Below are positions 20,351-38,634 of a DNA stretch of 64,000 bases, piece after piece. A program made the position numbers and the translations under genes. The first letter of the stretch is position 1. Each line of letters begins with the position of its first letter. Source of the DNA: Verrucomicrobiia bacterium (lineage in GTDB: Bacteria; Verrucomicrobiota; Verrucomicrobiia; Palsa-1439); contig JBGQCJ010000002.1 in NCBI GenBank assembly GCA_041495285.1, forward strand, positions 13,541-77,540, read 5' to 3'. Below the pieces are notes generated by a model, which saw nothing but the letters and a program-made list of their open reading frames with translations, had not been told where the DNA came from and did not search any database.

Positions 20351-20415
20351 CCGAGCCCGGCCAGTATCTTCTTGAGCGTCCGCGCGGCTTGAGGAATGAT
20401 GGTCAACGCGGCGCC

Positions 20416-20634: not shown

Positions 20635-20640
20635 CCAACG

Positions 20641-22576: not shown

Positions 22577-23542
22577 ATGCTCGCGTCCACTGTGAAGAGC
22601 AGACGCACCCTTCTGGCAGTGGCCGGACTCCTCGCGCTGATCGCGTTGGCTGTGTGGTTGCTGGCCCAACGGCACCACGCCCGCAGCGTGTCGGGCACGA
22701 TTGAGACCGACGAAGTGCACGTCGCCTCACGCTACGGCGGCCGCGTCGAGAAGCTTCACGTGGATGAAGGCGATGTGCTGAAGGCGGGGCAACCCATCGT
22801 CGAACTGGAAGCCGGCGAGCTGCGCGCCCGCCGCCAGTACACCGCCGCGTTGCTGGAACAAATGGAGCACGGCCCGCGTCCCGACGAGATCGCCGCGGCG
22901 AAACATGATTGGGAATCGCTGGCCGCGCAACTGGAGTTCGCCGAGTCCGAGGCGAAACGCGCGCGCGAATTGTTTGCGCAGAAGGTTGTCTCGCAAACGG
23001 AACTCGACGACGCGGTCAGCCACGCCAACAGTCTCCGGCAAAGTGCCGACGCGGCGAAGAAGCGGTACGACCTGCTTGTCGAAGGCACGCGGCCGGAGCA
23101 GATCGCGCAGGCGCGGGCGCAACTGGCCGAGAGCGACGCACAGGTGCGCGAGATGACGATCACGGCACCAAGCGATTGCGTGTTGGAAGTACTCAATGTC
23201 AAAGTCGGCGATGTGTTGCCGGCCAACCGCGAAGTGGCCACGTTGATTCTGCCGCAACATCTTTGGGTACGCGTGTACGTGCCGGAAAACTGGCTTGGGT
23301 ACATCCAAATCGGTCAACAAGTGAACGTGCGCACCGACTCGCCGCAAGGCCGCGAGTTTACCGGCGTCGTCGAGCAAATCAACCGGCAAGCCGAGTTTAC
23401 GCCGCGCAACGTGCAGACCGTGGCGGATCGCATCCGGCAGGTCTTCGGCGTGAAGATCCGGTTGTCGAGCGATACCGGCGTGCTGCGCGCCGGCATGTCC
23501 GCCGATGTGTTCTTCCCCAACGTGCCGGCCCCGCCGAAATGA
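22577..23542 (+). CDS. HlyD-family periplasmic adaptor (membrane fusion protein)
   Basis: TM anchor, lipoyl-like half (GTIETDEVHVASRYGGRVEKLHVDEGDVLKAGQPIVELE), coiled-coil hairpin and beta-barrel (ITAPSDCVLEV..VKVGDVL). The ORF is open from 22508, but that start would abut the divergent terC start, so ATG 22577 is preferred. Confidence 0.85.
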   Translation: MLASTVKSRRTLLAVAGLLALIALAVWLLAQRHHARSVSGTIETDEVHVASRYGGRVEKLHVDEGDVLKAGQPIVELEAGELRARRQYTAALLEQMEHGPRPDEIAAAKHDWESLAAQLEFAESEAKRARELFAQKVVSQTELDDAVSHANSLRQSADAAKKRYDLLVEGTRPEQIAQARAQLAESDAQVREMTITAPSDCVLEVLNVKVGDVLPANREVATLILPQHLWVRVYVPENWLGYIQIGQQVNVRTDSPQGREFTGVVEQINRQAEFTPRNVQTVADRIRQVFGVKIRLSSDTGVLRAGMSADVFFPNVPAPPK

Positions 23543-25167
23543 AGAACGCGGCGAGATCGTTGGGCCTCGGCGCTGCTCTCATCATCTTCTTGACGTTTGC
23601 AGCCTACATTCCCGCGATGCGCGGCGGATTCTTGTGGGATGATATTCACCTGATCACCGGCAACCGTCTGGTCAAGGCGGACGACGGGCTTTGGCGATTT
23701 TGGTTTACGACGGAGGCACCGGATTACTATCCGCTGACGTGGAGCCTGTGGTGGTTGGAGTGGCGGGTGTGGGGCGAGGCGGCGACGGGTTATCATGTCG
23801 TCAATGTGTTGTTGCACGCCGTGAACGCGGTTTTGGTTTGGAGAGTTCTGCAACGCCTGAACGTGCCGGGAGCCTTGCTGGCCGCGCTCGTGTTTGCGGT
23901 TCATCCGGTCAACGTGGCGACGGTGGCTTGGATCAGCGAGCAGAAGAACACGCTGTCGATGCTGTTCTGCTTGGCGGCGATCCTGTTTTATTTGAAGTTC
24001 GACGAGCAGGGTCGGTGGAAATGGTACGGTTTTTCGTGGGCCGCGTTTCTGCTGGGGCTGCTCAGCAAGAGCGCAGTCGTCATGTTGCCGGTGGCGCTGC
24101 TGGGGTGCGTGTGGTGGCGGCGGGACCGGCTGCGGGGGCAGGATTTTTTGCACAGTATTCCATTCTTTATATTGTCGTTGGCGTTCGGACTGGTGACGGT
24201 CTGGTTTCAGCACCACAACGTATTAAGGGGGATGACGGTCCGTGCAGAGGGCTTTCTTGGCCGGCTGGCCGTTGCCGGTTGCACGCCGTGGTTCTACTTG
24301 TACAAAGCGCTCCTGCCCGTCAATCTGAGCGCGGTGTACCCGCGATGGGGCCGGGTTTCCTTTCTTCCCGGGGTGCTCCTCGTGGGTTGCTTCGCGCTTT
24401 TTTGGTGGAAGCGGAAAACGTGGGGACGCCCGCTGCTCTTCGCGCTCGGCAGCTTTGTCGCGATGCTTTTCCCGGTTCTTGGTTTCTTCGATCAGGATTT
24501 CTATCAGTACTCGTTCGTGGCCGATCCTTGGCAGTATTATTCGATCGTTGGCGTGATCGCCCTCGTGATCGCGGTCATCGGCCAATGGAAGCATATCAGA
24601 ATCGCGGCGGCCGTGGTGGTGGCGCTGCTCGCCGTGGCCACTTGGGAACGGAGCCGCGTCTACGCATCTGAAGAAACGCTGTGGCGAGACACTGTGAGCA
24701 AGAATCCGGATGGTTGGATGCCACACTACAATCTCGGCACGGCTCTGCTGCATGCCGGCAAACTGCAAGAGGCCATCGGGCAACTCGAATCGGCAGCTCG
24801 GATGAGACCCGACCTCGTCAAAGTGCACAGCAACCTGGGAATCGCGCTCGCCCAAGCCGGCACAATCGATGAAGCAATCACGGAACTCGAACGCGCATTG
24901 GGCATCGACTCCAGTCAGGCTGAAGTGCGTGGCAATCTTGCACACGCACTGATGCTTCGAGGCCGCATCAACGAGGCGATCGAGCAGTGGGAGCGGGCGC
25001 TGCAATTGAAACCCGGTTGGGCTGAGGTTCATTACGATCTGGGACTAGCCCTAGAGCAAACCGGCAAGATCGAGGAGGCAGCCGAACAGTTTCGATTGGC
25101 GTTAAGATTCGATCCCAAGATGATCGAGGCACAGAATGAGTTGGCGCGAGTGCAGGCGGCCCACTAA
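23539..25167 (+). CDS. polytopic GT-C-like (TMTC/DUF1736-type) membrane protein with C-terminal TPR repeats (paralog 1)
   Basis: ATG 23539 overlaps the hlyD stop (ATGA). 542 aa with N-terminal multi-TM domain (AAYIPAMRGGFLWDD..., HPVNVATVAWISEQKNTLSMLF) and a C-terminal TPR tail (PHYNLGTALLHAGKLQEAIGQLE...). The upstream part of ORF 22909..25167 is an out-of-frame overlap with hlyD. Confidence 0.85.
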   Translation: MKNAARSLGLGAALIIFLTFAAYIPAMRGGFLWDDIHLITGNRLVKADDGLWRFWFTTEAPDYYPLTWSLWWLEWRVWGEAATGYHVVNVLLHAVNAVLVWRVLQRLNVPGALLAALVFAVHPVNVATVAWISEQKNTLSMLFCLAAILFYLKFDEQGRWKWYGFSWAAFLLGLLSKSAVVMLPVALLGCVWWRRDRLRGQDFLHSIPFFILSLAFGLVTVWFQHHNVLRGMTVRAEGFLGRLAVAGCTPWFYLYKALLPVNLSAVYPRWGRVSFLPGVLLVGCFALFWWKRKTWGRPLLFALGSFVAMLFPVLGFFDQDFYQYSFVADPWQYYSIVGVIALVIAVIGQWKHIRIAAAVVVALLAVATWERSRVYASEETLWRDTVSKNPDGWMPHYNLGTALLHAGKLQEAIGQLESAARMRPDLVKVHSNLGIALAQAGTIDEAITELERALGIDSSQAEVRGNLAHALMLRGRINEAIEQWERALQLKPGWAEVHYDLGLALEQTGKIEEAAEQFRLALRFDPKMIEAQNELARVQAAH

Positions 25168-25287
25168 CCGGTTGCTCGTGAGATCCGAAAAGGTGAGATT
25201 TGGAGATCGTACACAGCACGGGCCAGACGGACTAAACATATGAGCTAGTCGCGGCTGTGGAGTTTCGGTAATCTCCGACCGTTGAAG

Positions 25288-27111
25288 ATGCAGAAGTTGA
25301 TTCCCTTGCTCGTGATCGCCGCTAGTCTCAGCGCGTATCAGAACAGCTTCGAAGGGGTGTTTCTTCTCGATGATTGGGGAAGCGTTGTTCGGAACCCGAC
25401 GATTCACCGTCTTTGGCCGGTGTGGCAAGCGCTGAGCCCGCCTCGTGGGAGTGGCACAACAGTCGCTGGTCGTCCCATGATCAATTGGTCGTTTGCAGTC
25501 AACTACGCGATCGGCGGAACCCGGGTCTTGGGTTATCACGTGCTGAACCTCGCCATACACACCTTGGCTGGCTTGACCCTGTTGGGGATTGTGCGGCGAA
25601 CATTGTTGCAGGAACCATTGCGCCAGCGCTTCGGCGCGGCAGCGCAGCCTTTGGCACTGGCCATTGCGATAATTTGGGTCGTCCATCCCTTGCAAACCGA
25701 GTCGGTGGCGTACGTCTCGCAGCGCGCGGAGTCGCTTATGGGGTTATTCTACCTGCTGACTCTCTATTGTGCCATCCGTGGGGCGGAGACGGATTCGTCG
25801 AATGCTTGGTACGTCTTGTCGGTCGCGTCGTGTCTGCTTGGGGTTGCCAGCAAAGAGGTGATCGGCTCTGCTCCATTGCTCGTGTTTCTTTATGATCGCA
25901 CGTTTCTTTCGGGCTCGTTTCGGGAGGCGTGGCGGCGTCGCTGGCGGCTGTACGTCGCGTTGGCCGCCACATGGATTCCGTTGAGCTACCTCGTGATTTC
26001 AGCCGGCAACCGAGGCGGCTCGGCAGGCTTTGGCGCCGGTGTCACCTGGCAAGCGTATGCACTTACGCAATTTCAAGCGATTGCTCATTACGTGCGCCTG
26101 TCCGTCTGGCCGCATCCGCTGGTATTCGACTATGGAATCGGTGTGGCGAGCAGCGTCGGTGAGGTTGTGCCTTGCGCGCTTGCCGTGATCGCCCTACTGA
26201 TCAGCACGGCGATCGCGCTTTGGCGGTGGCCAGCGGTGGGCTTCCTCGGCGCTTGGTTCTTTGGCATTCTCATTCCAACTTCCAGCGTGCTGCCGGTGGC
26301 AACGCAGACGATAGCCGAACATCGTATGTACCTATCGTTGGTGGCTTTGATCGCGATTGTCGTGCTCGGCGCTTTCGAGATCGGGAAACGGATATTCAGC
26401 GGGCAGCAAGGACGGGTGCTCGGATGCGCGGCCGGCGGGCTCGTGGTGGTGCTCCTCACAATCCAGACCGTCCACCGCAATCAGGATTACAACTCTGAGG
26501 TGGCGCTTTGGCGGGATACTGTGATGAAGTGCCCTAACAACCCGCGGGCGCACTACAACTTGGGAGTCGCTTTGGGGAGACTGGGAAAGTTCACGGAAGA
26601 AATTGGGCAGTACGAACAGGCGTTGCGAATCAACCCCGATTACGCGGATGCCCACTACAATCTTGGCGTCGCCCTAGGGCAGGCAGGCAAACTACAGGAG
26701 GCGACCGGGCACTTTAATGAGGCACTGCGGATCGCACCTGATTTCGCCGAGGCTCACAACAACCTCGGGGTCGTCCTGATTCAGATGGGCAGAGTTCAGG
26801 AGGCGATTGATCAGTGGGAGCAGGCGCTGCAGATCCAACCCGACAATGCCGAAGCACAGGACAACCTTGGTAATGCTTTTGCACAAGTGGGTAAACTCGA
26901 TAATGCGATTCGACACTACGAGCAAGCGGTGCGGCTCCAGCCTGATTACGCAATCGCGTACTATAATCTGGGAGGCGCACTGGCACGATTGGGAAGGGTT
27001 CAAGAGGCAATCGAACGGTACCAGCAGGCGTTGCGTCTCAAACCCGATTTTGTCGAGGCGCAAGACAGATTGGCGCGACTGCAACCGCGTAGGACCTCAG
27101 GCCAAAGATGA
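25288..27111 (+). CDS. polytopic GT-C-like (TMTC/DUF1736-type) membrane protein with C-terminal TPR repeats (paralog 2)
   Basis: About 607 aa starting MQKLIPLLVIAASLSAYQNSFEGVFLLDD. Contains GYHVLNLAIHTLAGL and HPLQTESVAYVSQRAESLMGLFYL, with seven or more TPRs in the tail (AHYNLGVALG..GK..EAI..YEQALRI.PD). Confidence 0.85.
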   Translation: MQKLIPLLVIAASLSAYQNSFEGVFLLDDWGSVVRNPTIHRLWPVWQALSPPRGSGTTVAGRPMINWSFAVNYAIGGTRVLGYHVLNLAIHTLAGLTLLGIVRRTLLQEPLRQRFGAAAQPLALAIAIIWVVHPLQTESVAYVSQRAESLMGLFYLLTLYCAIRGAETDSSNAWYVLSVASCLLGVASKEVIGSAPLLVFLYDRTFLSGSFREAWRRRWRLYVALAATWIPLSYLVISAGNRGGSAGFGAGVTWQAYALTQFQAIAHYVRLSVWPHPLVFDYGIGVASSVGEVVPCALAVIALLISTAIALWRWPAVGFLGAWFFGILIPTSSVLPVATQTIAEHRMYLSLVALIAIVVLGAFEIGKRIFSGQQGRVLGCAAGGLVVVLLTIQTVHRNQDYNSEVALWRDTVMKCPNNPRAHYNLGVALGRLGKFTEEIGQYEQALRINPDYADAHYNLGVALGQAGKLQEATGHFNEALRIAPDFAEAHNNLGVVLIQMGRVQEAIDQWEQALQIQPDNAEAQDNLGNAFAQVGKLDNAIRHYEQAVRLQPDYAIAYYNLGGALARLGRVQEAIERYQQALRLKPDFVEAQDRLARLQPRRTSGQR

Positions 27112-28892
27112 TCGACAGCAAGCCATATGGCCGGAAAGTTTACCTGCCGTGGGTCGCCGTTGCGTTGGTACTCGGAGTCGCGCTGGCGTTGATGTGGGGG
27201 CCGATGCACGAGGACAGCGCGACCATCGACGAAGCGAATTTTCTCGGTGCGGGATATACCTACTGGCAGGGGCAGCGTTATTTCCTCAACGCCGATCACC
27301 CGCCGTTGATGCAACTGTGGAGCGCGTTCCCGTTGTTGTTTCTCGATGTGAAGATGCCGCCCGAGACACAGGAATTCTTCGACGACATTTTCGCGTCGTA
27401 CGAGGAGCGATGGGATCACCGGTCGGTGGATCGTACGGTCAAGCCAGTGCCGGGCGAGCAGTTTTACCGGTATCCGCTGATCGAGACGGGATCGTTCGGC
27501 AACCGGCTGCTGTATGGCCGGCAGAACGACGCCGACGCGTTGTTGTTCTGGGGAAGATTCATGCAAGCGTTAGTGACGCTGGCGACCGGCTTGTTGGTGT
27601 TTCTTTGGGCCCGGTCGCTGAGCAACTTGACCGGCGGGCTACTGGCGATGATCGCGTGGTACTTCAATCCGTTGGCGCTGGCGTACGGTCATCTGGTCAT
27701 CACCGACCCCGGCATTGCCTTGATGTTGCCGCTGGCAGTCTGGATGTTCGCGCGCTTTCTCGAATCGCCGGGACCGCGAACGGCATCGTTTGCGGGATTG
27801 GCTTTCGGTGGCGCGTTGCTCACAAAGTTCACGGCAATCATTCTCGTTCCCATCTTCGGCGTGATGCTGGTGGCGGCTTGGTGGTGGGCGCGTTCTATTC
27901 GTGAGGTGCCGGTTCGAAAGCTTCTTGGGAATCTGTTTCTGGTGGCCGGTGTGGCTTGGGCAACGGTTCTGGTTTTGTATGCACCGCACTGGTTGCCGGC
28001 GCCTTCGCTCGCGGTCGAAGACGCGCAGCGGCTGCGGGTGCCGGAGTGGTTTGTACGGATGCGGTGGTTGCTGATTCCCCGGGAGTATTTCAAAGGGCTG
28101 ACCCTCGTGCTGATGCACGTGGAACGGGGACAAAACTCTTACTTTCTCGGTCAGTGGTCGGATCAGGGTTACTGGTACTACTATCCGGTCGCGATGTTAC
28201 TCAAGACACCGGTCGCACTGCTGGTGCTGATGGCGTCCACGAGCGCGCTGGCGCTTCGGCGTGTCCGCCAATGGCGCTTCGGCGAAGCCGTACCGGTGAT
28301 CGCCGCCGCAGTTTACTTGGGTTTTGCCATGACCAACAAGGCGACGATTGGGATCCGCCATATCCTGCCCATCTATCCGTTGTTGGCGGTGGTGGTCGGA
28401 ATCGAGTTCGGTCAAATGAAACTGCGGTCGCAAGTGATGGGGTGGCTGCTCACGGCGTGGCTCGTGATTGCGGCTTTTTTGGCGCGTGCCGATTACATTG
28501 CGTATTTCAGCGAGATCGTCGGTGGTTCATCTCACGGCCAAGACTACCTGGTGGATTCCAATTTCGACTGGGGCCAGAACCTCAAACGGGTGAAACGGTG
28601 GATGAAACAAAATCACATCAGCCACATTTACCTCGATTGCGTCCGAACTCCGGCGCAAGTTCAATACTTGGAGATCCCCTGTGACTTGGTGACGGCGGCG
28701 CAGGCAAGCAAACTTCGCGAGGGGTTGCTGGTTGTTTCCGCATCTCATTTGATGTCACCCGATTATTCTTGGCTAAGGGCGACACGCACCGTCATGATTC
28801 GGATTGATAGCACGCTGTTCGTGTACGCAATGTCCGAGTCGCTTCCTGAGTTTCATGGAGGGCGGATCGCCGGCGGCCAGAAAGGAATGTGA
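27108..28892 (+). CDS. GT39/ArnT-PMT-like glycosyltransferase (GT-C fold), no TPR tail
   Basis: ATGA overlap with the preceding gene. 594 aa. The first periplasmic loop carries the acidic DE motif, followed by DHPPL (SATIDEANFLGAGYTY...LNADHPPLMQLW), as in PMT_2/ArnT-type enzymes. About 12 TM segments. Confidence 0.8.
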   Translation: MIDSKPYGRKVYLPWVAVALVLGVALALMWGPMHEDSATIDEANFLGAGYTYWQGQRYFLNADHPPLMQLWSAFPLLFLDVKMPPETQEFFDDIFASYEERWDHRSVDRTVKPVPGEQFYRYPLIETGSFGNRLLYGRQNDADALLFWGRFMQALVTLATGLLVFLWARSLSNLTGGLLAMIAWYFNPLALAYGHLVITDPGIALMLPLAVWMFARFLESPGPRTASFAGLAFGGALLTKFTAIILVPIFGVMLVAAWWWARSIREVPVRKLLGNLFLVAGVAWATVLVLYAPHWLPAPSLAVEDAQRLRVPEWFVRMRWLLIPREYFKGLTLVLMHVERGQNSYFLGQWSDQGYWYYYPVAMLLKTPVALLVLMASTSALALRRVRQWRFGEAVPVIAAAVYLGFAMTNKATIGIRHILPIYPLLAVVVGIEFGQMKLRSQVMGWLLTAWLVIAAFLARADYIAYFSEIVGGSSHGQDYLVDSNFDWGQNLKRVKRWMKQNHISHIYLDCVRTPAQVQYLEIPCDLVTAAQASKLREGLLVVSASHLMSPDYSWLRATRTVMIRIDSTLFVYAMSESLPEFHGGRIAGGQKGM

Positions 28893-30733: not shown

Positions 30734-30739
30734 CATAGG

Positions 30740-31711: not shown

Positions 31712-32829
31712 ACGGGCCTTTTCGCGGTTTTGGAGCGATCCTCTACAAAGAGTTCATCGTCGTCTTGCGCGACCGCACCACGCTGTTTTTCATGTTCTTT
31801 CCGCCCTTACTGCAGATCATCGCGTTCGGCTTTGCGCTAGACAACGACGTGAAGCACATGGCGATGGTGGTGTACAACGAAGACCGCACGGTGGAGAGCC
31901 GGCAACTCATCGACGCGTTTGTGAACACGCAGACGTTTCGCGTGGTGCGCGAGGTGAGCAGCATCGAGAAGTTGTCAACCGCGGTGCGTCGCGGCAAGGC
32001 GTACGTGGGGCTGCAGATCCCACCGGATTTCACGCGCAATCTGCGCGCCGGCCACAAGGCAACCGTGCAGGTGCTCATTGACGGCTCGAACTCGACGACG
32101 GCGTTGCAGGCGTTGAACACGGCGCTCGGCGTGGCGTTTCGGCGTTCGGTGAACCTGTTGCTCGGCGAGACGGGGCGCAGCGACTTGCCCATCGAAGTGC
32201 GGCCGCAAGTGCTTTACAACCCGTCGATGCGCGCGCCGAACTTTTTTGTGCCGGGCGTGATCGGGACAGCGTTGCAGATCGCCACGGTGTTTGCGGCGGC
32301 CATGTCCATTGTGCGGGAGCGCGAGCGCGGGACGCTGGAGAACTTGCTCGTCAGCCCACTGTCGCGCTGGGGACTGATGCTGGGCAAACTGGTGCCGTAT
32401 CTGTGCATCTCGATGACGATGGCGCTCTTTCTGTTTGTGATTCTGCGGTGGGTTTTCCTCGTCCCGATTCACGGTAGCATCGTCACCCTGTTTCTGGCGG
32501 CGTTCTTGTACATCTTCGCGTTGCTCAGTTTGGGGCTGCTGGTGTCCACCAAGGCGCAGAACCAGAATCAGGCGTTTCAGATGGCAATGACGATACTGTT
32601 GCCGTCCATCTTCTTCTCGGGATTCATCTTTCCGCGTGAGACAATGCCGTGGATTTTTTACGCGATCAGCACGCTGTTGCCGGCGACGTACTTTATCGAA
32701 CTCATGCGCGCGATCATCCTGCGCGGTGCGGGACTGCTGGAGTACTGGTTTCATCTCACCGTGCTGGCGGCGATGGGCGCGATCCTGTTTTCGCTCTGCG
32801 CGCTGCGATTCCAGCGCAAGATCGCTTGA
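31708..32829 (+). CDS. ABC-2 type transporter permease
   Basis: GTGA overlap with the ATPase gene. 373 aa. An N-terminal TM is followed by an extracytoplasmic domain and five TM segments, typical of YbhS/YbhR-like ABC-2 permeases. Confidence 0.9.
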   Translation: MNGPFRGFGAILYKEFIVVLRDRTTLFFMFFPPLLQIIAFGFALDNDVKHMAMVVYNEDRTVESRQLIDAFVNTQTFRVVREVSSIEKLSTAVRRGKAYVGLQIPPDFTRNLRAGHKATVQVLIDGSNSTTALQALNTALGVAFRRSVNLLLGETGRSDLPIEVRPQVLYNPSMRAPNFFVPGVIGTALQIATVFAAAMSIVRERERGTLENLLVSPLSRWGLMLGKLVPYLCISMTMALFLFVILRWVFLVPIHGSIVTLFLAAFLYIFALLSLGLLVSTKAQNQNQAFQMAMTILLPSIFFSGFIFPRETMPWIFYAISTLLPATYFIELMRAIILRGAGLLEYWFHLTVLAAMGAILFSLCALRFQRKIA

Positions 32830-32947
32830 AAGCGGCGCGGATACTGAGTTTCGGCGCATCCTTGAAGCCGGTGAGTAGGCCGAATTCTTTTACTGGACAG
32901 AATTTCGGCTGTGTGCTAGCATGACCCGGATTGAGAGGAGAATCTTG

Positions 32948-33709
32948 ATGAAACGTATGTGGCGTTTAGGTGGCCGTTGCAAGGCGGGGTTTCGGGCGTT
33001 TACTCTGATCGAACTACTCGTTGTTATCGCCATCATCGCCATTCTTGCCGGAATGCTTTTGCCGGCGTTGAACAAGGCGAAGCAGAAGGCGAATGCCACC
33101 AGTTGTCTTGGTAATATGCGTCAATGGGGTCTCGCGGTGGGGATGTACGCGGATGATTGGCAGGATTATTTGCCTCCCGAAGGAAGCGGTACTACCGTGA
33201 GTGCGTCGCCGTATGCTTGGTATAACGTACTCCCGCCGTATATCAACGCGCCTTCGTTGATCACGCTCTATGCAGCAGGAAAACCACCGGTGGCTAGTGC
33301 AAAGTCGATCTATTCATGCCCCAGCGCCACCAAGTGTCCGTCTGCTGCGAACCTTAGCGATAGTAATCCTTACTATATGTATGGGATGAATAATCGGATG
33401 GATCCGAACGGCACCCCCTTATTCAAGCGCGGCGACTGTACTAAGCCTTCCGAGACGATAATGTTTTGTGAGAACGAAGGCACCTTCTCTGCCACGAATG
33501 GGAAGTACGCCCCCGCTCGTCATTCCGACGGTTCCAATCTCACTTTCGTAGACGGACATGCAAGTTGGGTCGCGTTTCAAGACTATTGCAGGGCCGCGAA
33601 CCCCGGGTGCAATAGCATAGTCGCCGAGGAAGACTCGACGAAACTCTCTGGCGACTGGAAGGTCGGTACGAAAATTCATTGGTTTCCTTATGCAGGTGCG
33701 CCGACTTGA
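32948..33709 (+). CDS. prepilin-type N-terminal cleavage/methylation domain protein with H-X9-DG motif (DUF1559-like pseudopilin)
   Basis: [24 protein letters not shown] class-III signal and C-terminal [13 protein letters not shown] (H-X9-DG). GGAG lies about 10 nt upstream of ATG 32948, although the ORF is open from 32921. Confidence 0.9.
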
Positions 33710-33786
33710 CACTTATGCGATAGGCAGTTTTCGTAAACTGGAAGTTGAATGTAACAAAAGATGTGGGGAATGGGAGAAATAGGAAA

Positions 33787-36687
33787 ATGAAGAAGATTCT
33801 CAGTTTGATGACGGCGTTCATTGCCTTGGCAACCGGGATGACGATGTTCGCGCTACAATTCACGGACGGTAACATCGTTGTCTATCGTGTCGGCGATGGG
33901 GTGGCAACTCTGACAAACAGGGGCAACGTTGTCTTCTTGGACGAGTACCAGACGAACGGAACATTCGTTCAGTCAGTCATGTTGCGGACCAACTATTTCG
34001 GCGCGCAAAGCCCGTTGATCGGCAGCGGTACCGCCTTCGGCAGCGGCTTGATCACTCGCTCGGTGGACGGCCGATTCATTCTGGTGAATGGGTACGGAAC
34101 GGACTTGGGAATATTCACAAATACCTCGGTACAAGGAAACTTTGCCTCCTCGGTGCCTCGCGTGACGGGCTTGGTGGACGGCCAAGGCAACAGCGACACC
34201 ACGACCACTCGCACCAACACCGACTTCGATAGTGTGGAAGTGCGCGCCGCGGTCAGTCCCGATGGAACCAATATTTGGACTGCCGGCGATAGCGGCGGCG
34301 TTCAATATGGGACTCGGGGGTCATTGGATTCCACACAAGTTCAGACGACTCTCGGCAACGTCCGGCAACTCCACATATTCAACAGTCAACTTTACTTTGA
34401 TATTAACAACCCGAGTAGCGTCACCCAAAGTGTCGTCATTTGTACGAATAACGTGCCGGGTCAGTTGCCCACCGCCACCAACGATGTCCTTAGTTCATTT
34501 CTCAAAGCCGTGAACGAACCGAGTCCGGAGGGCTTCCTCATGTTGAAGCTGAAAGCCGGTGGAGCGGATCCGCTCGACACGCTTTATGTCGCGGACGGCA
34601 CCTTGGGTCACGTGGCGAAGTATTCCTTGGTCAGCGGCACTTGGGTCAATGATGGAGCCATCGCGGGGGTTCAGGCAGCGGTCGGCTTGACCGGAGTGAG
34701 GAACATTATTGGCAACCAGACCAATGTGGTGCTCTACATCACCCAGGGTGGTACAACCCTCACCGGTGGCAATAATATCGCTCGCGTCACGGACACGACC
34801 GGCTACCATGTGGCTCCCGACGGCGGCGACCTCGCGCTCATCGTGAACGGAACCACCAAGAAAGCTCTCCGCGGCATCGTGTTGGCCCCAACCACCAACA
34901 GCGACCTAGCCCTTCCCAGCGGCGCGGGCCGGCTCTCGGTCGGACCGGCCATAGACGTCTTTGCAAAGGCGTTGACCAGCTGTCCGGATGTGACGGAAAC
35001 CGACGTTTTCTCACTGGCCAACCCGGGCACCTCCACCATACTTTGGACAGCGATGGTTGATGCCGCTTGGGTGAACTTGTCCGATAAGAACGGCACACTC
35101 GGCATCATGGGCAACGCCAATATCACCGTCACATTGGGGGACATCACCGGCTTGTCCGCCGCCACGAACCCGGCCACGATCACGTTCAGCAACAAAACCA
35201 GCGTTGTCGGCACCACCACACGGGCGGTGACGCTGTTCTTGGACCCGCAGACGATCAGCCCGTTGACTGACTATACCGCCTTGGGACCGCCCACCACCGG
35301 CCCGTTCACACCGTCCAACAAGGTTTACACGGTGAAGACCGGCCCGGCCATCACGTTGAACATAAGCAAGCTGAACAACTCAACGTGGCTGAATCTCGGC
35401 ACCACCACTGTCTCGTTGGGCGCCTGCGGCAGCACGATTATCACCGCCTCAATCAACCAGGCAGTGGCCAATACCCTCGCGGTAAGCAATTATACGGAGA
35501 CGATCGTCTTCAGCAACGGCACCAGCTCCGTGATTGACACGCGCTCCGTGCTCCTCGGCGTCGGCTTCCAGTTCTTCTGCGACGACTTCAGCACGTACAC
35601 CCAAAACGCCAACCTTCAGGGTCAGAATGGCTGGGCGGCGGTTGGAGGAAGCTTCAACGAGCCTTTTGTCCACGACGGCGCAGTCTGGGTTGCAGCGACC
35701 ACGGTACAGGCAGCGGGTGACGAACCCACCAAGAACTTCCCGCAACTCGTCGCAACCAACACGCCGACTCGCAGTATGTTCTGCGCAATGTCGATCACCG
35801 TCACCAGCGCCGCGCCGGCGAGTACGTTCAGCCCGTCGCGAATCTGGACGTTCTTCCAGAGCGCGAATGGTGTCGGTTACGCGCGCGACTCTCTCACTGT
35901 CAGGGATACCGGCACCGGCGGGTTCGTATTCGGCATCCGCAACAACGGCATAACCGCTAATACGAACGTATTCAGCGCGACTGCTCGCAGCTACGGCACG
36001 GCTTATAACATCATTGTCCAGGGCGAAGTTGGGAATACCAACAGCTACGTGTACGTCAATCCACCCAATGGGACACTGAACACGGCCAATGCCGACGTGA
36101 AGATGACCCTCGTGAGCGGGTCCGATTTCAACGTCGGGAGCGCCCAAATCGGCAACACGTTCGATAATGCCGCCTTTAACTACCAGGCGGGCATCGCCAT
36201 CTCCAAGATGTGCGTCACGACCAACTATACCGACGCCTTCAATGACCTCCCTACCGGAGGTCCATCGGATCCGTTCACCACATGGCAGACGTTCTACTTC
36301 CCCGCTGATGGCCCGAATGCGGCACCGAATGCCGACCCGGATCATGACGGGATGAGTAACACGAACGAGTTCTTGGCGGGCTTCAACCCGACCAACAACG
36401 CGGCGCGCCTGAAGATCACTAGCATCGTGAGGACGGACGGCACTAACGTAACGATAACGTATCTGGGTGCCAGCGGTGACAGCGCATCCGGCAGGCCGTC
36501 GAGCTACGCCAACGTTCTTTATTCCACGACGGGCACGCCGCCCAGCTACACGAATAACTTCGTGAGCACCGGTCAGACCAACGTCCTCAGTGGCGGGACC
36601 GGCCTCGGCCAGACGGCCACCTTCGTGCACACGAACGGGGCGACCGGCCCGGCTCGGTACTATCGCGTCCGTGTGCTGATACCATAA
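33787..36687 (+). CDS. large secreted beta-rich protein with BACON-like/Ig-like modules, LamG-like region and a TSP3-type Ca-binding motif
   Basis: 966 aa from MKKILSLMTAFIALATGMTMFA (signal peptide). Thr/Asn/Gly-rich beta repeats. Two BACON-like segments (NPGTSTILWTAMVDAAWVNLSDKNGTLG...). C-terminal DPDHDGMSNTNEFLAGFNPTNNAARLKITSI, common in PVC surface proteins. Confidence 0.8.
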   Translation: MKKILSLMTAFIALATGMTMFALQFTDGNIVVYRVGDGVATLTNRGNVVFLDEYQTNGTFVQSVMLRTNYFGAQSPLIGSGTAFGSGLITRSVDGRFILVNGYGTDLGIFTNTSVQGNFASSVPRVTGLVDGQGNSDTTTTRTNTDFDSVEVRAAVSPDGTNIWTAGDSGGVQYGTRGSLDSTQVQTTLGNVRQLHIFNSQLYFDINNPSSVTQSVVICTNNVPGQLPTATNDVLSSFLKAVNEPSPEGFLMLKLKAGGADPLDTLYVADGTLGHVAKYSLVSGTWVNDGAIAGVQAAVGLTGVRNIIGNQTNVVLYITQGGTTLTGGNNIARVTDTTGYHVAPDGGDLALIVNGTTKKALRGIVLAPTTNSDLALPSGAGRLSVGPAIDVFAKALTSCPDVTETDVFSLANPGTSTILWTAMVDAAWVNLSDKNGTLGIMGNANITVTLGDITGLSAATNPATITFSNKTSVVGTTTRAVTLFLDPQTISPLTDYTALGPPTTGPFTPSNKVYTVKTGPAITLNISKLNNSTWLNLGTTTVSLGACGSTIITASINQAVANTLAVSNYTETIVFSNGTSSVIDTRSVLLGVGFQFFCDDFSTYTQNANLQGQNGWAAVGGSFNEPFVHDGAVWVAATTVQAAGDEPTKNFPQLVATNTPTRSMFCAMSITVTSAAPASTFSPSRIWTFFQSANGVGYARDSLTVRDTGTGGFVFGIRNNGITANTNVFSATARSYGTAYNIIVQGEVGNTNSYVYVNPPNGTLNTANADVKMTLVSGSDFNVGSAQIGNTFDNAAFNYQAGIAISKMCVTTNYTDAFNDLPTGGPSDPFTTWQTFYFPADGPNAAPNADPDHDGMSNTNEFLAGFNPTNNAARLKITSIVRTDGTNVTITYLGASGDSASGRPSSYANVLYSTTGTPPSYTNNFVSTGQTNVLSGGTGLGQTATFVHTNGATGPARYYRVRVLIP

Positions 36688-36704
36688 CGGCAGCTGACGA
36701 ATCC

Positions 36705-36757
36705 GAAGCGCTGGTGTGTCTCAACACCCGGTTGAGGCCACCAGCGCTTCCGTTTTC
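36705..36757 (+). terminator. Rho-independent terminator after the 966-aa protein gene
   Basis: Perfect 12-bp stem GAAGCGCTGGTG (36705-36716) / CACCAGCGCTTC (36739-36750) with inner stem CTCAAC/GTTGAG, followed by CGTTTTCC. Confidence 0.7.
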
Positions 36758-36822
36758 CGTCTGGACCGGGCACGCGAGCCAGCCGAATGCCAGCCGTCGA
36801 GCGAACCGTCTGAGAATAGCCG

Positions 36823-36852
36823 TTGACATTCGGGTCGCACGGCAGGTGAAAT
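36823..36852 (+). promoter_or_regulatory. candidate sigma70-type promoter for paralog 3
   Basis: Perfect -35 TTGACA (36823-36828), an 18-nt spacer, then TGAAAT (36847-36852). It is very close to ATG 36862, so the leader would be very short. Speculative. Confidence 0.3.
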
Positions 36853-36861
36853 AGCGGCCTA

Positions 36862-38634
36862 ATGAATGGCGACTGGAAACTGCAAGGTCGGCCCGCGGCG
36901 CTCATCGTGTTGCTGACGATTGTGGCGTATCTGCCCGCGATGCGCGGCGGATTCGTCTTCGATGACGCGCTTCTTATCACCCACAACCGGCTGATTAGAG
37001 CTGGCGACGGACTCTATCGGTTCTGGTTCACGACGGAAGCACCCGATTATTATCCGCTAACGTCGAGTTTATGGTGGCTGGAGTGGCGGCTCTGGGGTGC
37101 CAACCCGATGGGTTACCACGTGGTCAACGTGCTATTGCACGCCGTCAATGCGGTGTTGGTGTGGATTATCTTGCGAAGGCTGAAGGTTCCGGCAGCTTGG
37201 CTGGCGGGGCTGGTGTTTGCAATTCACCCCGTGAACGTTGCGACAGCGGCTTGGATCAGCGAACTGAAGAATACGCTCTCGATGCTCTTCTTCGCGACGG
37301 CGATTCTTCTGTATCTGAGGTTCGACGAAGAAGATAGACGAGGCTGGTATGGCTTATCATTGGCGGCGTTTGTGCTCGCCTTGCTGAGCAAGGCTGCGGT
37401 GGTCATGCTCCCCGTGGTGCTGCTCGGCTGCGCGTGGTGGTCGTACGGCAGAGTGCGAAGGAAGGACCTCCTGCGCGCCGTGCCGTTCATTGCCCTTTCA
37501 CTTGCCTTCGGATTGGTGACGATCTGGTTTCAATACAATCGGGCCTTGGGAGGGGGCACCGTCCGTACTGATAGTTTCCTTTGTCGCGTCGTTGCGGCCG
37601 GATGGGTGCCGTGGTTCTATCTGTCCAAGGCGATCCTGCCGTTGGATCTGACCGTGGTGTATCCTCGCTGGAACATCAATGCCTCTCAGTGGCTGGCCTA
37701 CCTACCGGGAGTGATCCTCGTGGGCTGCTTCATGGTTGTTTGGCGGAAACGCAACACGTGGGGACGACCGCTCTTATTTGGGCTTGGGTATTTTGCGGTG
37801 ATGCTCATTCCGGTGTTGGGATTCTTCGATATAGCTTTCTATGCATTCTCGTTGGTGGCCGACCACTGGCAGTACTACTCAATCGCCGGGGTGATTGCTT
37901 TGGCGGTGGCCGGCGGGGAGACGATTTGCCGGCGCATGGGTGCGCGTGGCCGTTATGTTGGGCTCTCGGTGGGCGCGGTCGTATTGATAGTGCTGGGAGT
38001 GGCTACCTGGAAACGGGGGGGTGTTTATGCAGACTCCCAAACACTCTGGCGAGACACCATCGCAAAGAATCCGAATGCTTGGGTGGCGCACAACTACCTA
38101 GGTTGTGACCTATCGCGGGCCGGTGAAGTTCATGAGGCAATAGCACAGTACGAACAGGCGTTGCGGATCAAACCTGACTACGTTGACGCACACAACAACT
38201 TGGGCAACGCCCTTTTGCAAGTCGGCAGAATCCAGGCTGCGATGGAACACTACGAGCAGGCGTTGCGGATCAACCCGGACTCTGCCGTGACGCATTACAA
38301 CCTGGGAGTCGCCTTGGCGCAGGTGGGCAAGCTTCAGGGTGCAATCGTGAATTTTGAGCAGGCGGTGCAGATCGACCCTGACTATGCCGAGGCGCACAAC
38401 AACTTGGGGAGCGCACTGTCAATCGCAGGCAGGTTTCAGGACGCGATCAATCACTACGAGCAGGCGCTTCGTCTGATGCCGGATTCTCCAGAAGTTCACT
38501 GCAATCTAGCGATGGCCTTGGAGCAAGCGGGCCATGTCAGCGAGGCCCGCGCTCAGTACGAGAAGGCGTTACAGATTAAGCCCGATTATGTCGAGGCGCA
38601 GCACGGGCTGGCGCAATTGCGGGCCGTTCAGTAA
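36862..38634 (+). CDS. polytopic GT-C-like (TMTC/DUF1736-type) membrane protein with C-terminal TPR repeats (paralog 3, close copy of paralog 1)
   Basis: 590 aa. It shares long identical strings with the 23539 gene (PAMRGGF, RFWFTTEAPDYYPLT, LWWLEWR, GYHVVNVLLHAVNAVLVW, HPVNVAT.AWISE.KNTLSMLF, AVVMLPV.LLGC.WW), followed by a TPR tail. Confidence 0.85.
   Translation: MNGDWKLQGRPAALIVLLTIVAYLPAMRGGFVFDDALLITHNRLIRAGDGLYRFWFTTEAPDYYPLTSSLWWLEWRLWGANPMGYHVVNVLLHAVNAVLVWIILRRLKVPAAWLAGLVFAIHPVNVATAAWISELKNTLSMLFFATAILLYLRFDEEDRRGWYGLSLAAFVLALLSKAAVVMLPVVLLGCAWWSYGRVRRKDLLRAVPFIALSLAFGLVTIWFQYNRALGGGTVRTDSFLCRVVAAGWVPWFYLSKAILPLDLTVVYPRWNINASQWLAYLPGVILVGCFMVVWRKRNTWGRPLLFGLGYFAVMLIPVLGFFDIAFYAFSLVADHWQYYSIAGVIALAVAGGETICRRMGARGRYVGLSVGAVVLIVLGVATWKRGGVYADSQTLWRDTIAKNPNAWVAHNYLGCDLSRAGEVHEAIAQYEQALRIKPDYVDAHNNLGNALLQVGRIQAAMEHYEQALRINPDSAVTHYNLGVALAQVGKLQGAIVNFEQAVQIDPDYAEAHNNLGSALSIAGRFQDAINHYEQALRLMPDSPEVHCNLAMALEQAGHVSEARAQYEKALQIKPDYVEAQHGLAQLRAVQ

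What the first reader, a model, noticed from the sequence alone, without database searches (positions are those of the whole stretch)
22577..38634. HlyD adaptor and ABC-2 exporter split apart by four intercalated GT-C-like/TPR membrane proteins, followed by a pseudopilin, a 966-aa surface protein and a fifth paralog
**Gene order seen directly.** All genes are on the plus strand.
- The HlyD adaptor overlaps paralog 1 (ATGA at 23539-23542).
- After a 120-nt gap, paralog 2 overlaps a GT39/ArnT-like gene (ATGA at 27108-27111).
- That gene overlaps a TPR membrane protein (GTGA at 28889-28892).
- After a 6-nt gap, the ABC-2 ATPase overlaps the ABC-2 permease (GTGA at 31708-31711).
- Then come an H-X9-DG pseudopilin, a 966-aa secreted beta-rich protein, a strong terminator, and a third TMTC-like paralog with its own candidate promoter.

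**Why this is unusual.** In canonical YbhGFSR-type loci the adaptor sits directly next to the ABC-2 ATPase and permease. Here four polytopic proteins are wedged between them and translationally coupled to them.
- One has the acidic-loop plus DHPPL signature of PMT/ArnT GT-C glycosyltransferases.
- Three carry TPR tails like eukaryotic TMTC O-mannosyltransferases.

**Hypothesis.** This may be a periplasmic lipid-linked-sugar glycosylation machine coupled to a tripartite exporter. Candidate substrates are the adjacent pseudopilin and the Thr/Asn-rich 966-aa protein. I am not aware of a described system with this architecture.
Basis: partly seen in the sequence, partly recalled or inferred. Interest (0 to 1): 0.7.

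Follow-up and report, generated by a model that had tools for sequence, protein, structure and literature searches.

The report
Efflux operon colonised by glycosyltransferase paralogs
In a soil Verrucomicrobium, an ordinary three-gene efflux-pump operon has been split by a cluster of membrane glycosyltransferase-like genes with TPR tails. The same mixture recurs in relatives in shuffled orders, so it is a real but loosely linked mosaic rather than a demonstrated new machine.

Summary
**Observation:** it holds. Ten plus-strand genes lie at the stated coordinates with the stated 4-nt overlaps, and a strong hairpin follows the 966-aa gene.

**Gene identities**
- p1, p2, p5 and the TPR-less gene ("gt") are GT-C glycosyltransferases. 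Evidence: Pfam PMT_2, invariant DD/DE in loop 1, and an AlphaFold model of gt that matches Pmt4 and ArnT.
- The fourth intercalated gene (tprM) belongs to a very large family with no Pfam model. It has a TMTC-like 11-TM topology, but its GT-C status is only weakly supported.

**Comparative genomics**
- Contiguous hlyD-abcA-abcP is the norm in about 40 related loci.
- In the sub-clade where the operon sits beside TerC, eight loci carry TPR-tailed paralogs at varying positions: hlyD|abcA, abcA|abcP, or downstream.
- Three loci in this sub-clade are canonical.
- The closest relative keeps GT-C, pilin and the big protein at this locus but has no pump.
- In other lineages, unrelated genes (toxin-antitoxin pairs, IS200-like genes, a cupin) occupy the same hlyD|abcA junction.

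**Verdict:** this is a co-transcribed mosaic. The likelier functional unit is GT-C/TPR plus the pilin-like and large secreted proteins. Coupling to the exporter is unproven. It is a new variant of known kinds, of moderate interest.

The parts
22577..23542 (+). hlyD: periplasmic membrane-fusion adaptor, YbhG-like (the ORF could start at 22508; gene calls and orthologs favour 22577)
   Evidence: Pfam HlyD_D23 1.7e-22 and HlyD_3 7.5e-19; NCBIfam PRK03598 at 178.7 bits, below the 393 cutoff. Orthologs at 65-80% identity sit next to TerC.
23539..25167 (+). p1: TMTC-like GT-C glycosyltransferase with a C-terminal TPR tail; its start overlaps the hlyD stop (ATGA)
   Evidence: PMT_2 at 46.4 bits (cutoff 26.1) plus TPR. 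55% identical to p5. DD motif in FLWDD. L081 carries a truncated ortholog with the same overlap with hlyD.
25288..27111 (+). p2: divergent TMTC-like GT-C/TPR paralog
   Evidence: 33% identity to p5 over the full length, E 1e-84. No PMT_2 hit of its own. DD in VFLLDD, and KE in SKEVIG. Orthologs at 55-61% identity in L012, L027 and L087.
27108..28892 (+). gt: GT39/ArnT-like GT-C glycosyltransferase without TPR, with a C-terminal periplasmic alpha/beta domain
   Evidence: PMT_2 at 41.5 bits. D41 and E42 invariant in 16 of 16 sequences; DHPPL present. AlphaFold model pLDDT 82, pTM 0.87. Top Foldseek hits are Pmt4 9i5k, ArnT 5f15/5ezm, OST and Pmt1/2.
28889..30733 (+). tprM: 11-TM membrane protein of an uncharacterised family with a periplasmic TPR tail; probably a very divergent GT-C
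   Evidence: No Pfam hit for the N-domain. 4513 representative clusters at E<=1e-3. 11 TM, with long loops after TM1 and after TM7. D78, D94, R232, N278 and R281 conserved. Distant members hit PMT_2 (2.5e-4) and PMT (1.9e-5). hhalign E 0.0015-0.008 only. AF2 membrane part is low confidence.
30740..31711 (+). abcA: ABC-2 type ATPase with a single nucleotide-binding domain
   Evidence: ABC_tran 1e-31; closest to the DrrA and RbbA N-terminal families, below their cutoffs. Orthologs at 70-84% identity directly follow hlyD in most related loci.
31708..32829 (+). abcP: ABC-2 permease with a large periplasmic loop; its start overlaps the abcA stop (GTGA)
   Evidence: ABC2_membrane_3 1e-55. 134-aa loop between TM1 and TM2. 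Orthologs at 67-86% identity.
32921..33709 (+). H-X9-DG / DUF1559 prepilin-like protein (probable start at Met10, 32948)
   Evidence: N_methyl 29.6 bits, SBP_bac_10 29.3 bits, TIGR04294 19.5 bits (cutoff 19). 53%-identical orthologs lie next to GT-C genes in L009 and L166.
33787..36687 (+). 'big': 966-aa secreted Thr/Asn-rich protein, no curated family
   Evidence: Signal-peptide-like N-terminus. T 13.9%, N 8.3%. Only a weak BACON_2 hit. Orthologs at 36-56% identity follow the pilin in L009 and L166; the L166 copy carries PKD and BACON_2.
36704..36750 (+). Strong stem-loop followed by CGUUUUCC: likely intrinsic terminator ending the long transcription unit
   Evidence: MFE -44.4 kcal/mol; z -5.6 against 200 shuffles.
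36862..38634 (+). p5: TMTC-like GT-C/TPR paralog downstream of the terminator
   Evidence: PMT_2 at 34.4 bits plus TPR. hhalign of the p5-type N-domain profile against the gt family: probability 97.5%, E 2.5e-11. D34, D35 and K177 invariant in 20 of 20 sequences.
21589..22509 (-). TerC-family membrane protein, divergent from hlyD; it anchors the conserved synteny block Leu/Phe-transferase, DUF2905, QueA, TerC
   Evidence: Pfam TerC 2.9e-52. The same block lies upstream of hlyD in L081, L083, L084, L166, L167, L170 and L171, and upstream of the GT-C cluster in L009.

Best explanation
**What it is.** The locus is a mosaic of three modules that lie downstream of a conserved TerC gene in one lineage of soil/peat Verrucomicrobiia.

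- **Module A** is an ordinary HlyD-adaptor / ABC-2 ATPase / ABC-2 permease efflux pump. In most relatives it is a contiguous three-gene operon.
- **Module B** is a set of paralogous polytopic inner-membrane proteins from a strongly lineage-expanded group. Four are GT-C glycosyltransferases (PMT_2/ArnT/TMTC-like) and one is a probable, very divergent relative. Four of the five carry periplasmic TPR tails.
- **Module C** is an H-X9-DG pilin-like protein plus a large Thr/Asn-rich secreted protein.

**How it arose (inferred).** In this genome, module B genes were inserted between hlyD and abcA. They became translationally coupled through 4-nt overlaps. The whole block from hlyD to the 966-aa gene is therefore probably one transcript that ends at the hairpin at 36.7 kb. 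p5 is separate.

**How it most likely works (inferred).**
- By analogy with PMT, TMTC, ArnT and the streptococcal GT-C enzymes, these enzymes take a sugar from a polyprenyl-phosphate carrier on the periplasmic face.
- They would then transfer it to Ser/Thr of exported proteins that their TPR tails select.
- The neighbouring pilin-like and large secreted proteins are the best candidate acceptors.
- The pump most likely keeps its own efflux role. It shares only regulation with the glycosyltransferases.
- Its junctions tolerate inserted genes, and the TPR-tailed family tends to accumulate there.

**Shown versus inferred.**
- Shown: gene identities, the fold of gt, the operon layout, and the comparative pattern.
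- Inferred: co-transcription, donor, acceptors, and the independence of the pump.
For: **Canonical state**
- hlyD-abcA-abcP is contiguous in about 40 related metagenomic loci.
- It is also contiguous in the TerC-linked L086, L170 and L171 and in L172.

**Recurrent but positionally variable mixing in the TerC-linked sub-clade**
- L087: hlyD, p5-type, abcA, abcP.
- L088, L167/L168 and the P0129 contig: hlyD, tprM, abcA, abcP.
- L084: hlyD, abcA, p5-type, tprM, abcP, p5-type, p5-type.
- L166: hlyD, abcA, p5-type, abcP, p5-type, pilin, big.
- L081: hlyD overlapped by a truncated p1.
- Sources.

**Modules are separable**
- L009 is the closest gt ortholog (74%). Its order is QueA, TerC, p5-type, tprM, gt, pilin, big, with no hlyD or ABC genes.
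- Pilin plus big stay next to GT-C/TPR genes in all three genomes that have them: the window, L009 and L166.

**The junction tolerates unrelated insertions**
- Toxin-antitoxin pairs and IS200/RAYT-like genes in L108, L117, L124 and L128. These were identified by eye from the translations, not by a family search.
- A cupin in L173.

**GT-C identity:**

**Operon layout:** 4-nt overlaps, and the only strong hairpin comes after 'big'.

**Precedent:** bacterial GT-C enzymes O-glycosylate exported proteins using Und-P-sugar made by a GT-A enzyme (PMC12041528). TMTCs are GT-C enzymes with lumenal TPR tails (PMC7801869).
Against: - Eight of about thirteen informative TerC-linked loci carry TPR-tailed paralogs inside or next to the pump operon. 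The flanks and the rest of the window carry almost none. This enrichment, together with tight translational coupling, could reflect a real functional link that I cannot exclude.
- None of the 30 window ORFs scanned (not every ORF in the window was scanned) matched a polyprenyl-phosphate-sugar synthase or a flippase, so the donor pathway is undefined.
- The GT-C nature of tprM, the most widely conserved intercalated gene, is unproven.
- There is no transcript, glycan or acceptor evidence.
- The sample of long contigs is small, and all of it comes from metagenome-assembled genomes.
Confidence: 0.55

Rival explanations
1. **Integrated machine.** The HlyD/ABC-2 exporter and the GT-C/TPR enzymes work together. 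Either the ABC-2 transporter flips or supplies the polyprenyl-phosphate-sugar donor, or it exports the glycosylated pilin-like or large protein (or a glycoconjugate) across the envelope while the TPR tails dock onto the adaptor.
For: - TPR-tailed paralogs recur inside the operon in eight related loci, with insertions between different pump genes.
- Translational coupling by 4-nt overlaps on both sides.
- L166 repeats the complete gene set in a different order.
- tprM directly precedes abcA in four independent loci and in the window.
- None of the 30 flanking window ORFs scanned matched a flippase-type family, so that role is unassigned.
Against: - L009 keeps GT-C, pilin and big at the same locus with no hlyD or ABC genes.
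- L086, L170 and L171 keep the pump with no GT-C gene.
- gt orthologs in more than 20 other Verrucomicrobial loci have no pump nearby.
- Most tprM homologs lie on contigs without the pump. Only 4 of the top 120 share a longest-contig length with a HlyD ortholog (a proxy for co-location); two of these four were confirmed by locus look-ups and the L084 pairing rests on matching gene length.
- The same junction hosts toxin-antitoxin, IS200-like and cupin genes elsewhere.
- ABC-2 pumps with HlyD adaptors are not known to export folded proteins (own knowledge).
Confidence: 0.17
2. **Envelope lipid or polysaccharide modification.** The GT-C enzymes act, like ArnT, on lipid A, LPS core or another envelope glycolipid or polymer rather than on proteins. 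The pump exports or maintains the same envelope component. The pilin-like and large proteins are bystanders.
For: - The gt model matches ArnT about as well as it matches Pmt4.
- Sources name homologs 'ArnT family' or '4-amino-4-deoxy-L-arabinose transferase-like'.
- ABC-2 transporters commonly move envelope glycoconjugates (own knowledge).
Against: - TPR tails are protein-binding modules. In the characterised TPR-tailed GT-C enzymes (TMTCs) the acceptors are proteins (PMC7801869).
- Pilin plus big co-travel with the GT-C genes in three genomes.
- None of the 30 window ORFs scanned matched an Ara4N, LPS-modification or sugar-activation family.
Confidence: 0.1
3. **Pure hitchhiking.** None of the modules is functionally related. 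The TPR-tailed family is a rapidly duplicating, recombining paralog family that piles up in a permissive, well-expressed region downstream of TerC. The adjacency to both the pump and pilin/big is historical accident.
For: - The family is very large. tprM has 2153 word-index hits and 4513 representative clusters.
- Multi-paralog arrays occur elsewhere without a pump or pilin (L012, L017, L027).
- Gene order varies between genomes.
- There is a strain-level TPR-unit indel and an identity break inside tprM.
- Unrelated insertions occupy the same junction in other lineages.
Against: - Pilin plus big are found next to GT-C/TPR genes in all three genomes that have them, despite different orders.
- The overlapping start and stop codons imply long-standing integration.
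- TPR DNA repeats are only 60-74% identical, so there is no sign of recent gene conversion.
Confidence: 0.18

Closest known systems
E. coli YbhG-YbhFSR (HlyD-type adaptor plus ABC-2 exporter) and related DrrAB/YadGH-type ABC-2 pumps
   Same: - A single-TM HlyD/MFP adaptor whose best NCBIfam match is YbhG.
- An ABC_tran ATPase.
- An ABC2_membrane_3 permease with a large periplasmic loop.
- In most relatives the three genes are contiguous.
   Different: - All scores are below the NCBIfam equivalog cutoffs.
- There is one single-domain ATPase and one permease, whereas E. coli has a fused double ATPase YbhF and two permeases YbhS/YbhR (own knowledge).
- No TetR-type regulator lies directly upstream of hlyD, where the divergent gene is TerC. 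No TolC-like family matched among the ORFs scanned.
- Here the genes are separated by 7.2 kb of unrelated membrane-protein genes.
Eukaryotic TMTC1-4 protein O-mannosyltransferases (CAZy GT105)
   Same: - A polytopic GT-C N-domain followed by a TPR tail on the non-cytoplasmic side.
[quoted passage not shown]
- A conserved Lys in the SK(E) motif.
- Closest structural relative of the TMTC family is ArnT (PMC7801869; window data).
   Different: - No DUF1736 (loop EL4) Pfam hit, even at E<=10.
- Motifs SHKSYRP, DW and ERxxY are absent or only partly recognisable.
- The proteins are bacterial, multi-copy and clustered.
- Donor lipid, sugar and acceptors are unknown.
ArnT (GT83) and bacterial/fungal PMT (GT39) GT-C enzymes
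   Same: - gt, p1 and p5 pass the Pfam PMT_2 gathering score.
- gt has the DE pair and DHPPL in loop 1.
- The predicted fold of gt matches Pmt4, ArnT and Pmt1/2.
   Different: - No sequence-level hit to any solved structure.
- No MIR domain as in PMTs. gt instead has a small C-terminal alpha/beta domain.
- None of the 30 window ORFs scanned matched an arn-type donor-synthesis family.
Streptococcal Pgf / GtrB-PgtC protein O-glycosylation and P. aeruginosa TfpW pilin arabinosylation
   Same: - Bacterial GT-C enzymes transfer a sugar from an undecaprenyl-phosphate carrier to Ser/Thr-rich exported proteins (PMC12041528).
- TfpW is encoded next to its pilin substrate (own knowledge).
   Different: - Those systems include a linked GT-A synthase for the lipid-sugar donor.
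- They lack TPR tails.
- None is embedded in an efflux-pump operon.

Membership tests
GT-C glycosyltransferases (PMT_2 / ArnT / PMT clan) | Significant match to a GT-C family model (Pfam PMT_2 or PMT above the gathering score) | tested here: met
   p1 46.4 bits, gt 41.5 bits and p5 34.4 bits against a cutoff of 26.1. p2 has no direct hit but is 33% identical to p5 over its full length. The p5-type profile against the gt profile gives hhalign probability 97.5%. Not met for tprM.
GT-C glycosyltransferases (PMT_2 / ArnT / PMT clan) | GT-C fold | tested here: met
   Tested for gt only: model pLDDT 82, pTM 0.87. The best Foldseek PDB hits are Pmt4 9i5k (E 6e-8), ArnT 5f15/5ezm, OST STT3, AglB and Pmt1/2.
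GT-C glycosyltransferases (PMT_2 / ArnT / PMT clan) | Conserved acidic residue(s) in the first extracytoplasmic loop | tested here: met
   gt D41-E42 invariant in 16 of 16 sequences. p1/p2/p5-type D34-D35 invariant in 20 of 20. tprM has D78 (105 of 115) and D94 (110 of 115) in its 79-aa loop 1.
GT-C glycosyltransferases (PMT_2 / ArnT / PMT clan) | tprM N-domain belongs to the clan | tested here: inconclusive
   - No Pfam hit.
- The AF2 membrane part is below pLDDT 50 in the loops, and Foldseek returns only TPR hits.
- hhalign E 0.0015 against p5N and 0.008 against gt, with probabilities of 17% and 5%.
- Two distant relatives hit PMT_2 (2.5e-4) and PMT (1.9e-5, above cutoff) in the collinear region.
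- The 11-TM topology with long loops after TM1 and TM7 fits.
GT-C glycosyltransferases (PMT_2 / ArnT / PMT clan) | Use of a polyprenyl-phosphate-linked sugar donor; transferase activity | not testable with these tools
   None of the 30 window ORFs scanned matched a GT2/GtrB/Ppm1-type synthase family. The rest of the genome was not available.
TMTC family (GT105) | GT-C N-domain followed by a TPR tail on the non-cytoplasmic side | tested here: met
   TPR Pfam hits in the C-terminal 150-200 residues of p1, p2, p5 and tprM. An odd TM count for tprM places the tail in the periplasm. Crude hydropathy undercounts the TMs of p1, p2 and p5, so their exact number is not established.
TMTC family (GT105) | DUF1736 segment (loop between TM7 and TM8) and motifs M2-M7 (PMC7801869) | tested here: not met
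   No DUF1736 hit at E<=10 for any N-domain. Only M1 (DD) and the Lys of M4 are clearly conserved, and the KE and EHRxY-like motifs appear only in p2. The proteins are therefore TMTC-like in architecture but not filed as TMTC members.
YbhG-YbhFSR type tripartite ABC-2 exporter | HlyD-family adaptor equivalent to YbhG | tested here: not met
   Pfam HlyD_D23 and HlyD_3 are met, but NCBIfam PRK03598 scores 178.7 bits against a 393 cutoff. This is a family-level relative only.
YbhG-YbhFSR type tripartite ABC-2 exporter | ABC-2 ATPase and ABC-2 permease adjacent to the adaptor | tested here: not met
   Both genes are present (ABC_tran 1e-31; ABC2_membrane_3 1e-55) but lie 7.2 kb from hlyD in the window. 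They are adjacent in most relatives.
YbhG-YbhFSR type tripartite ABC-2 exporter | Outer-membrane channel partner (TolC-like) | not tested
   No TolC-like family matched among the window ORFs scanned. No genome-wide search was possible.
H-X9-DG / DUF1559 prepilin-like proteins of the PVC group | N-terminal prepilin methylation motif, DUF1559 body and H-X9-DG C-terminal motif | tested here: met
   N_methyl 29.6 bits (cutoff 21.2); SBP_bac_10 29.3 bits (cutoff 23.3); TIGR04294 19.5 bits (cutoff 19). [12 protein letters not shown] was read in the sequence.

The most novel reading that the evidence does not exclude
The recurrent embedding of TPR-tailed GT-C-like proteins, tprM above all, in this HlyD/ABC-2 operon reflects a true functional partnership. 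In this reading the ABC-2 transporter delivers or flips the polyprenyl-phosphate-sugar donor, or removes the spent carrier or product. It would do this for a periplasmic, TMTC-like protein O-glycosylation system that decorates pilin-like and Ig-like-domain surface proteins. That would make this a bacterial counterpart of the eukaryotic TMTC pathway with a dedicated transporter.
Probability: 0.12. Interest if true: 0.8.

Novelty: new variant of a known kind. Interest (0 to 1): 0.45.

Why it matters
- **Bacterial model for TMTC-type enzymes.** If the GT-C/TPR proteins glycosylate the neighbouring pilin-like and large secreted proteins, this lineage would offer a bacterial system for studying them. 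In animals, TMTC-type O-glycosyltransferases modify cadherins. It would also give a first functional handle on the enigmatic, hugely expanded DUF1559/H-X9-DG pilin-like family of PVC bacteria.
- **An unmodelled family.** The tprM N-domain family has thousands of sequence clusters and no Pfam model. It deserves a family definition and a fold determination.
- **A caution for guilt-by-association.** Tight operon embedding with overlapping codons can arise in an insertion-tolerant junction. It does not by itself prove a shared mechanism.

Tried and rejected
- **Single-sequence phmmer against PDB sequences.** gt, the p5 N-domain and the tprM N-domain gave nothing.
- **Profile search against PDB sequences.** The gt profile gave only spurious haemoglobin hits.
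- **AlphaFold and Foldseek for tprM.** The AlphaFold model had a poorly predicted membrane part, and Foldseek returned only TPR/OGT matches. This was uninformative about the fold.
- **hhalign, low-diversity and global runs.** The low-diversity tprM profile and the global-mode runs gave no signal.
- **hhalign, diverse profile.** This gave only weak collinear matches.
- **gt-anchored scan of genome contigs.** I expected to find the pump nearby but found none. This first suggested that the adjacency was unique, and the HlyD-anchored searches reversed that conclusion.
- **Consensus promoter and terminator scans.** Results were at chance level.
- **The p1-p2 gap.** It has no significant structure.
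- **DNA repeat search for recent gene conversion among TPR tails.** Copies are only 60-74% identical.
- **Literature searches.** They found no description of bacterial TPR-tailed GT-C genes in ABC-2 operons, and no functional work on Verrucomicrobial homologs.
- **Possible deletion footprint in L081.** The match of the L081 remnant tail to the pilin C-terminus (PGCNSI, pairwise E 8e-4) is too weak to rely on.

Full report
**1. The observation**

I read the junctions directly from the sequence:
- ATGA at 23539 (hlyD/p1)
- ATGA at 27108 (p2/gt)
- GTGA at 28889 (gt/tprM)
- GTGA at 31708 (abcA/abcP)
- a 120-nt gap between p1 and p2
- a 6-nt gap between tprM and abcA

The block is bounded by a divergent TerC gene (21589-22509, minus strand) and a minus-strand exonuclease-like gene (38786-39319). 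A 21-bp stem-loop follows the 966-aa gene (-44 kcal/mol, z -5.6). The p1-p2 gap has no significant structure. Consensus promoter and terminator hits are at chance level. tBLASTn of the five polytopic proteins finds every paralog inside this block and none in the other 48 kb of the window.

**2. What the genes are**

| Gene | Evidence |
|---|---|
| hlyD | HlyD_D23 and HlyD_3; closest NCBIfam is YbhG, well below the equivalog cutoff |
| abcA | single-domain ABC ATPase |
| abcP | ABC2_membrane_3 permease (1e-55) with a 134-aa periplasmic loop |
| p1, p5 | pass the Pfam PMT_2 gathering score, carry TPR tails, 55% identical to each other |
| p2 | 33% identical to p5 over its full length |
| pilin | N_methyl, DUF1559 and H-X9-DG models all passed |
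| 966-aa protein | signal peptide; 13.9% Thr, 8.3% Asn; only a weak BACON_2 hit |

- A profile of p5-type N-domains matches the gt family (hhalign probability 97.5%, E 2.5e-11).
- The DD pair in loop 1 and a Lys (K177) are invariant in 20 of 20 p5-type sequences. These correspond to TMTC motifs M1 and M4 (PMC7801869).
- gt passes PMT_2, has an invariant D41-E42 and DHPPL, and lacks TPR.
- The AlphaFold model of gt is confident (pLDDT 82, pTM 0.87). Its best PDB matches are Pmt4, ArnT, OST/STT3, AglB and Pmt1/2. The GT-C fold is therefore confirmed for gt.

**3. The fourth intercalated gene (tprM)**

- Its 455-residue N-domain hits no Pfam family, even at E<=10.
- It belongs to a very large family: 2153 word-index hits and 4513 representative clusters at E<=1e-3. 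Several paralogs often appear to share one contig, judging by identical longest-contig lengths.
- Crude hydropathy gives 11 TM segments. There is a 79-residue loop after TM1 and a 73-residue loop after TM7, and the TPR tail is placed in the periplasm. This is the TMTC/ArnT layout described in PMC7801869.
- D78, D94, R232, N278 and R281 are conserved across 115 diverse members.
- Two distant members hit PMT_2 (2.5e-4) and PMT (1.9e-5) in the collinear region.
- hhalign with a diverse profile gives only weak collinear matches (E 0.0015 and 0.008).
- The AlphaFold membrane domain is low confidence.

I call tprM a probable, very divergent GT-C. This is not proven.

**4. Comparative genomics**

The nearest public record is a Verrucomicrobiia MAG (GCA_041488115.1).

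*Anchoring on gt.* I collected 77 loci. None had hlyD or this ABC-2 pair nearby. On its own this would have suggested a one-off arrangement.

*Anchoring on HlyD changed the picture.*
- Orthologs at 65-80% identity are common.
- In about 40 metagenomic loci, hlyD-abcA-abcP is contiguous. That is the canonical, presumably ancestral state.
- In the sub-clade where hlyD sits beside TerC (synteny: Leu/Phe-transferase, DUF2905, QueA, TerC), the operon is often mixed with TPR-tailed paralogs.

| Locus | Gene order downstream of TerC |
|---|---|
| L087 | hlyD, p5-type, abcA, abcP |
| L088, L167/L168, P0129 contig | hlyD, tprM, abcA, abcP |
| L084 | hlyD, abcA, p5-type, tprM, abcP, p5-type, p5-type |
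| L166 | hlyD, abcA, p5-type, abcP, p5-type, pilin (53%), big (36-56%; PKD/BACON) |
| L081 | hlyD overlapped by a truncated p1 ortholog |
| L086, L170, L171 | canonical pump, no paralog |
| L009 (closest gt ortholog, 74%) | p5-type, tprM, gt, pilin, big; no hlyD, abcA or abcP |

TerC linkage is unverified for L087 and L088. L087 shows QueA upstream but no TerC match, and the L088 contig starts at hlyD.

*Other insertions at the same junction.* In other lineages the hlyD|abcA junction holds toxin-antitoxin pairs and IS200/RAYT-like genes (L108, L117, L124, L128, identified by eye from the translations rather than by a family search). It also holds a cupin (L173).

**5. Interpretation**

The pattern is a mosaic of three modules: the pump, the TPR-tailed GT-C-like paralogs, and pilin plus the big protein.
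- The pump and the paralogs are clearly separable in both directions.
- The pump's internal junctions tolerate foreign genes.
- Pilin plus big always travel with GT-C/TPR genes in the three genomes that have them.

The best-supported functional unit is therefore GT-C/TPR enzymes acting on exported proteins. The pilin-like and large Thr-rich proteins are the prime candidate acceptors. This rests on analogy with TMTC and PMT enzymes and with streptococcal GT-C protein glycosylation from Und-P-sugars (PMC12041528).

In the window the whole block from hlyD to 'big' is probably one transcript. The evidence is the overlaps and the single strong hairpin. Co-transcription, donor and acceptors are all inferences.

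The enrichment of the paralogs at this locus, and the recurrence of tprM immediately before abcA, keep a true pump-glycosyltransferase partnership alive as a minority hypothesis. I put it at about 0.15. None of the 30 window ORFs scanned matched a donor-synthase or flippase family.

**6. Comparison with known systems and novelty**

- **The pump.** It is a family-level relative of YbhG/YbhFSR but fails the equivalog thresholds. It has a single-domain ATPase and one permease.
- **p1, p2 and p5.** They are TMTC-like in architecture and in the DD motif. They lack DUF1736 and most TMTC motifs, so I do not file them as TMTC members.
- **gt.** It is a GT39/GT83-like GT-C enzyme.
- **Literature.** I found no description of TPR-tailed GT-C genes embedded in a HlyD/ABC-2 operon, and no functional work on these Verrucomicrobial families.

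This is a new variant built from known kinds. Interest is moderate, because the striking 'machine' reading is weakened by the comparative data. The expanded TMTC-like and tprM families and their link to pilin-like proteins are worth following up.

**7. Incidental**

- The sister assembly L001 differs from the window by one extra 34-residue TPR unit in tprM.
- Identity between the two is 98.7% upstream of that point and 99.99% downstream. This suggests strain-level recombination at the TPR repeats.

Noticed in passing
window 30290-30400 (tprM TPR region) versus L001 6520-6720: The near-identical public assembly (GCA_041488115.1) has one extra 102-nt TPR unit (34 aa) in tprM. Identity to the window is 98.7% upstream of this point (78 mismatches, 12 gaps over 6.9 kb) and 99.99% downstream. 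This looks like a strain-level recombination or repeat-slippage breakpoint inside the TPR array.
   Followed up: partly
L108 10471-13297; L117 1604-2470; L124 4205-5106; L128 10912-11673; L173 10960-11298: In other lineages the hlyD|abcA junction of the same pump operon holds unrelated small genes. These are Phd/YoeB-like and RHH/PIN-like toxin-antitoxin pairs, IS200/RAYT-like transposase genes and a cupin. The junction seems to be a general insertion-tolerant site. The toxin-antitoxin and transposase labels come from reading the translations, not from a family search.
   Followed up: partly
L081 10948-11292: A 114-aa ORF overlaps the hlyD stop. It is a truncated p1 ortholog, 67% identical over the first 89 residues. 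Its tail weakly resembles the pilin C-terminus (PGCNSI), which may be a deletion footprint of a window-like arrangement.
   Followed up: partly
window 28889-30253 (tprM N-domain): This 11-TM domain defines a very large family: 4513 clusters at 50% identity with E<=1e-3, and 888 with E<=1e-30. It has no Pfam or NCBIfam model and is usually annotated only as 'tetratricopeptide repeat protein'.
   Followed up: partly
L012 5800-21690; L027 1-11023; L017 1-2850: Other Verrucomicrobial loci carry arrays of 4-6 TPR-tailed paralogs (p2-type, p5-type, tprM-type, gt-type) on both strands with no pump. One of them (L012) has a pilin-like gene nearby.
   Followed up: no
L009 12988-16201: The ortholog of the 966-aa protein in the closest relative is split into two overlapping ORFs (12988-14538 and 14414-16201). 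This is either a frameshift pseudogene or a long-read assembly error.
   Followed up: no
window 11940-15508 (minus strand): A 731-aa protein with C-terminal TPRs (13313-15508) overlaps the start of a type I phosphodiesterase/nucleotide pyrophosphatase gene (11940-13316). It is not a paralog of the GT-C set beyond the TPRs.
   Followed up: no
window 98-5043: Four consecutive long ORFs have no Pfam match at E<=1e-5: 98-1480 (+), 1477-2340 (+), 2930-4069 (-) and 4087-5043 (-). Each has an equally long ORF on the opposite strand, so the coding strand is uncertain.
   Followed up: no
window 45562-48949 (minus strand): A second ABC system: an FtsX-type permease (45562-47076), an ABC ATPase (47073-47735) and an upstream 405-aa protein without a family (47732-48949). 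This could be a MacB/LolCDE-like unit with an unrecognised adaptor.
   Followed up: no
window 19174-22509 and L081, L084, L166, L167, L170, L171, L009: The block Leu/Phe-tRNA-protein transferase, DUF2905, QueA, TerC(-) is conserved across this Verrucomicrobial clade. It serves as a fixed landmark immediately upstream of the variable region.
   Followed up: yes
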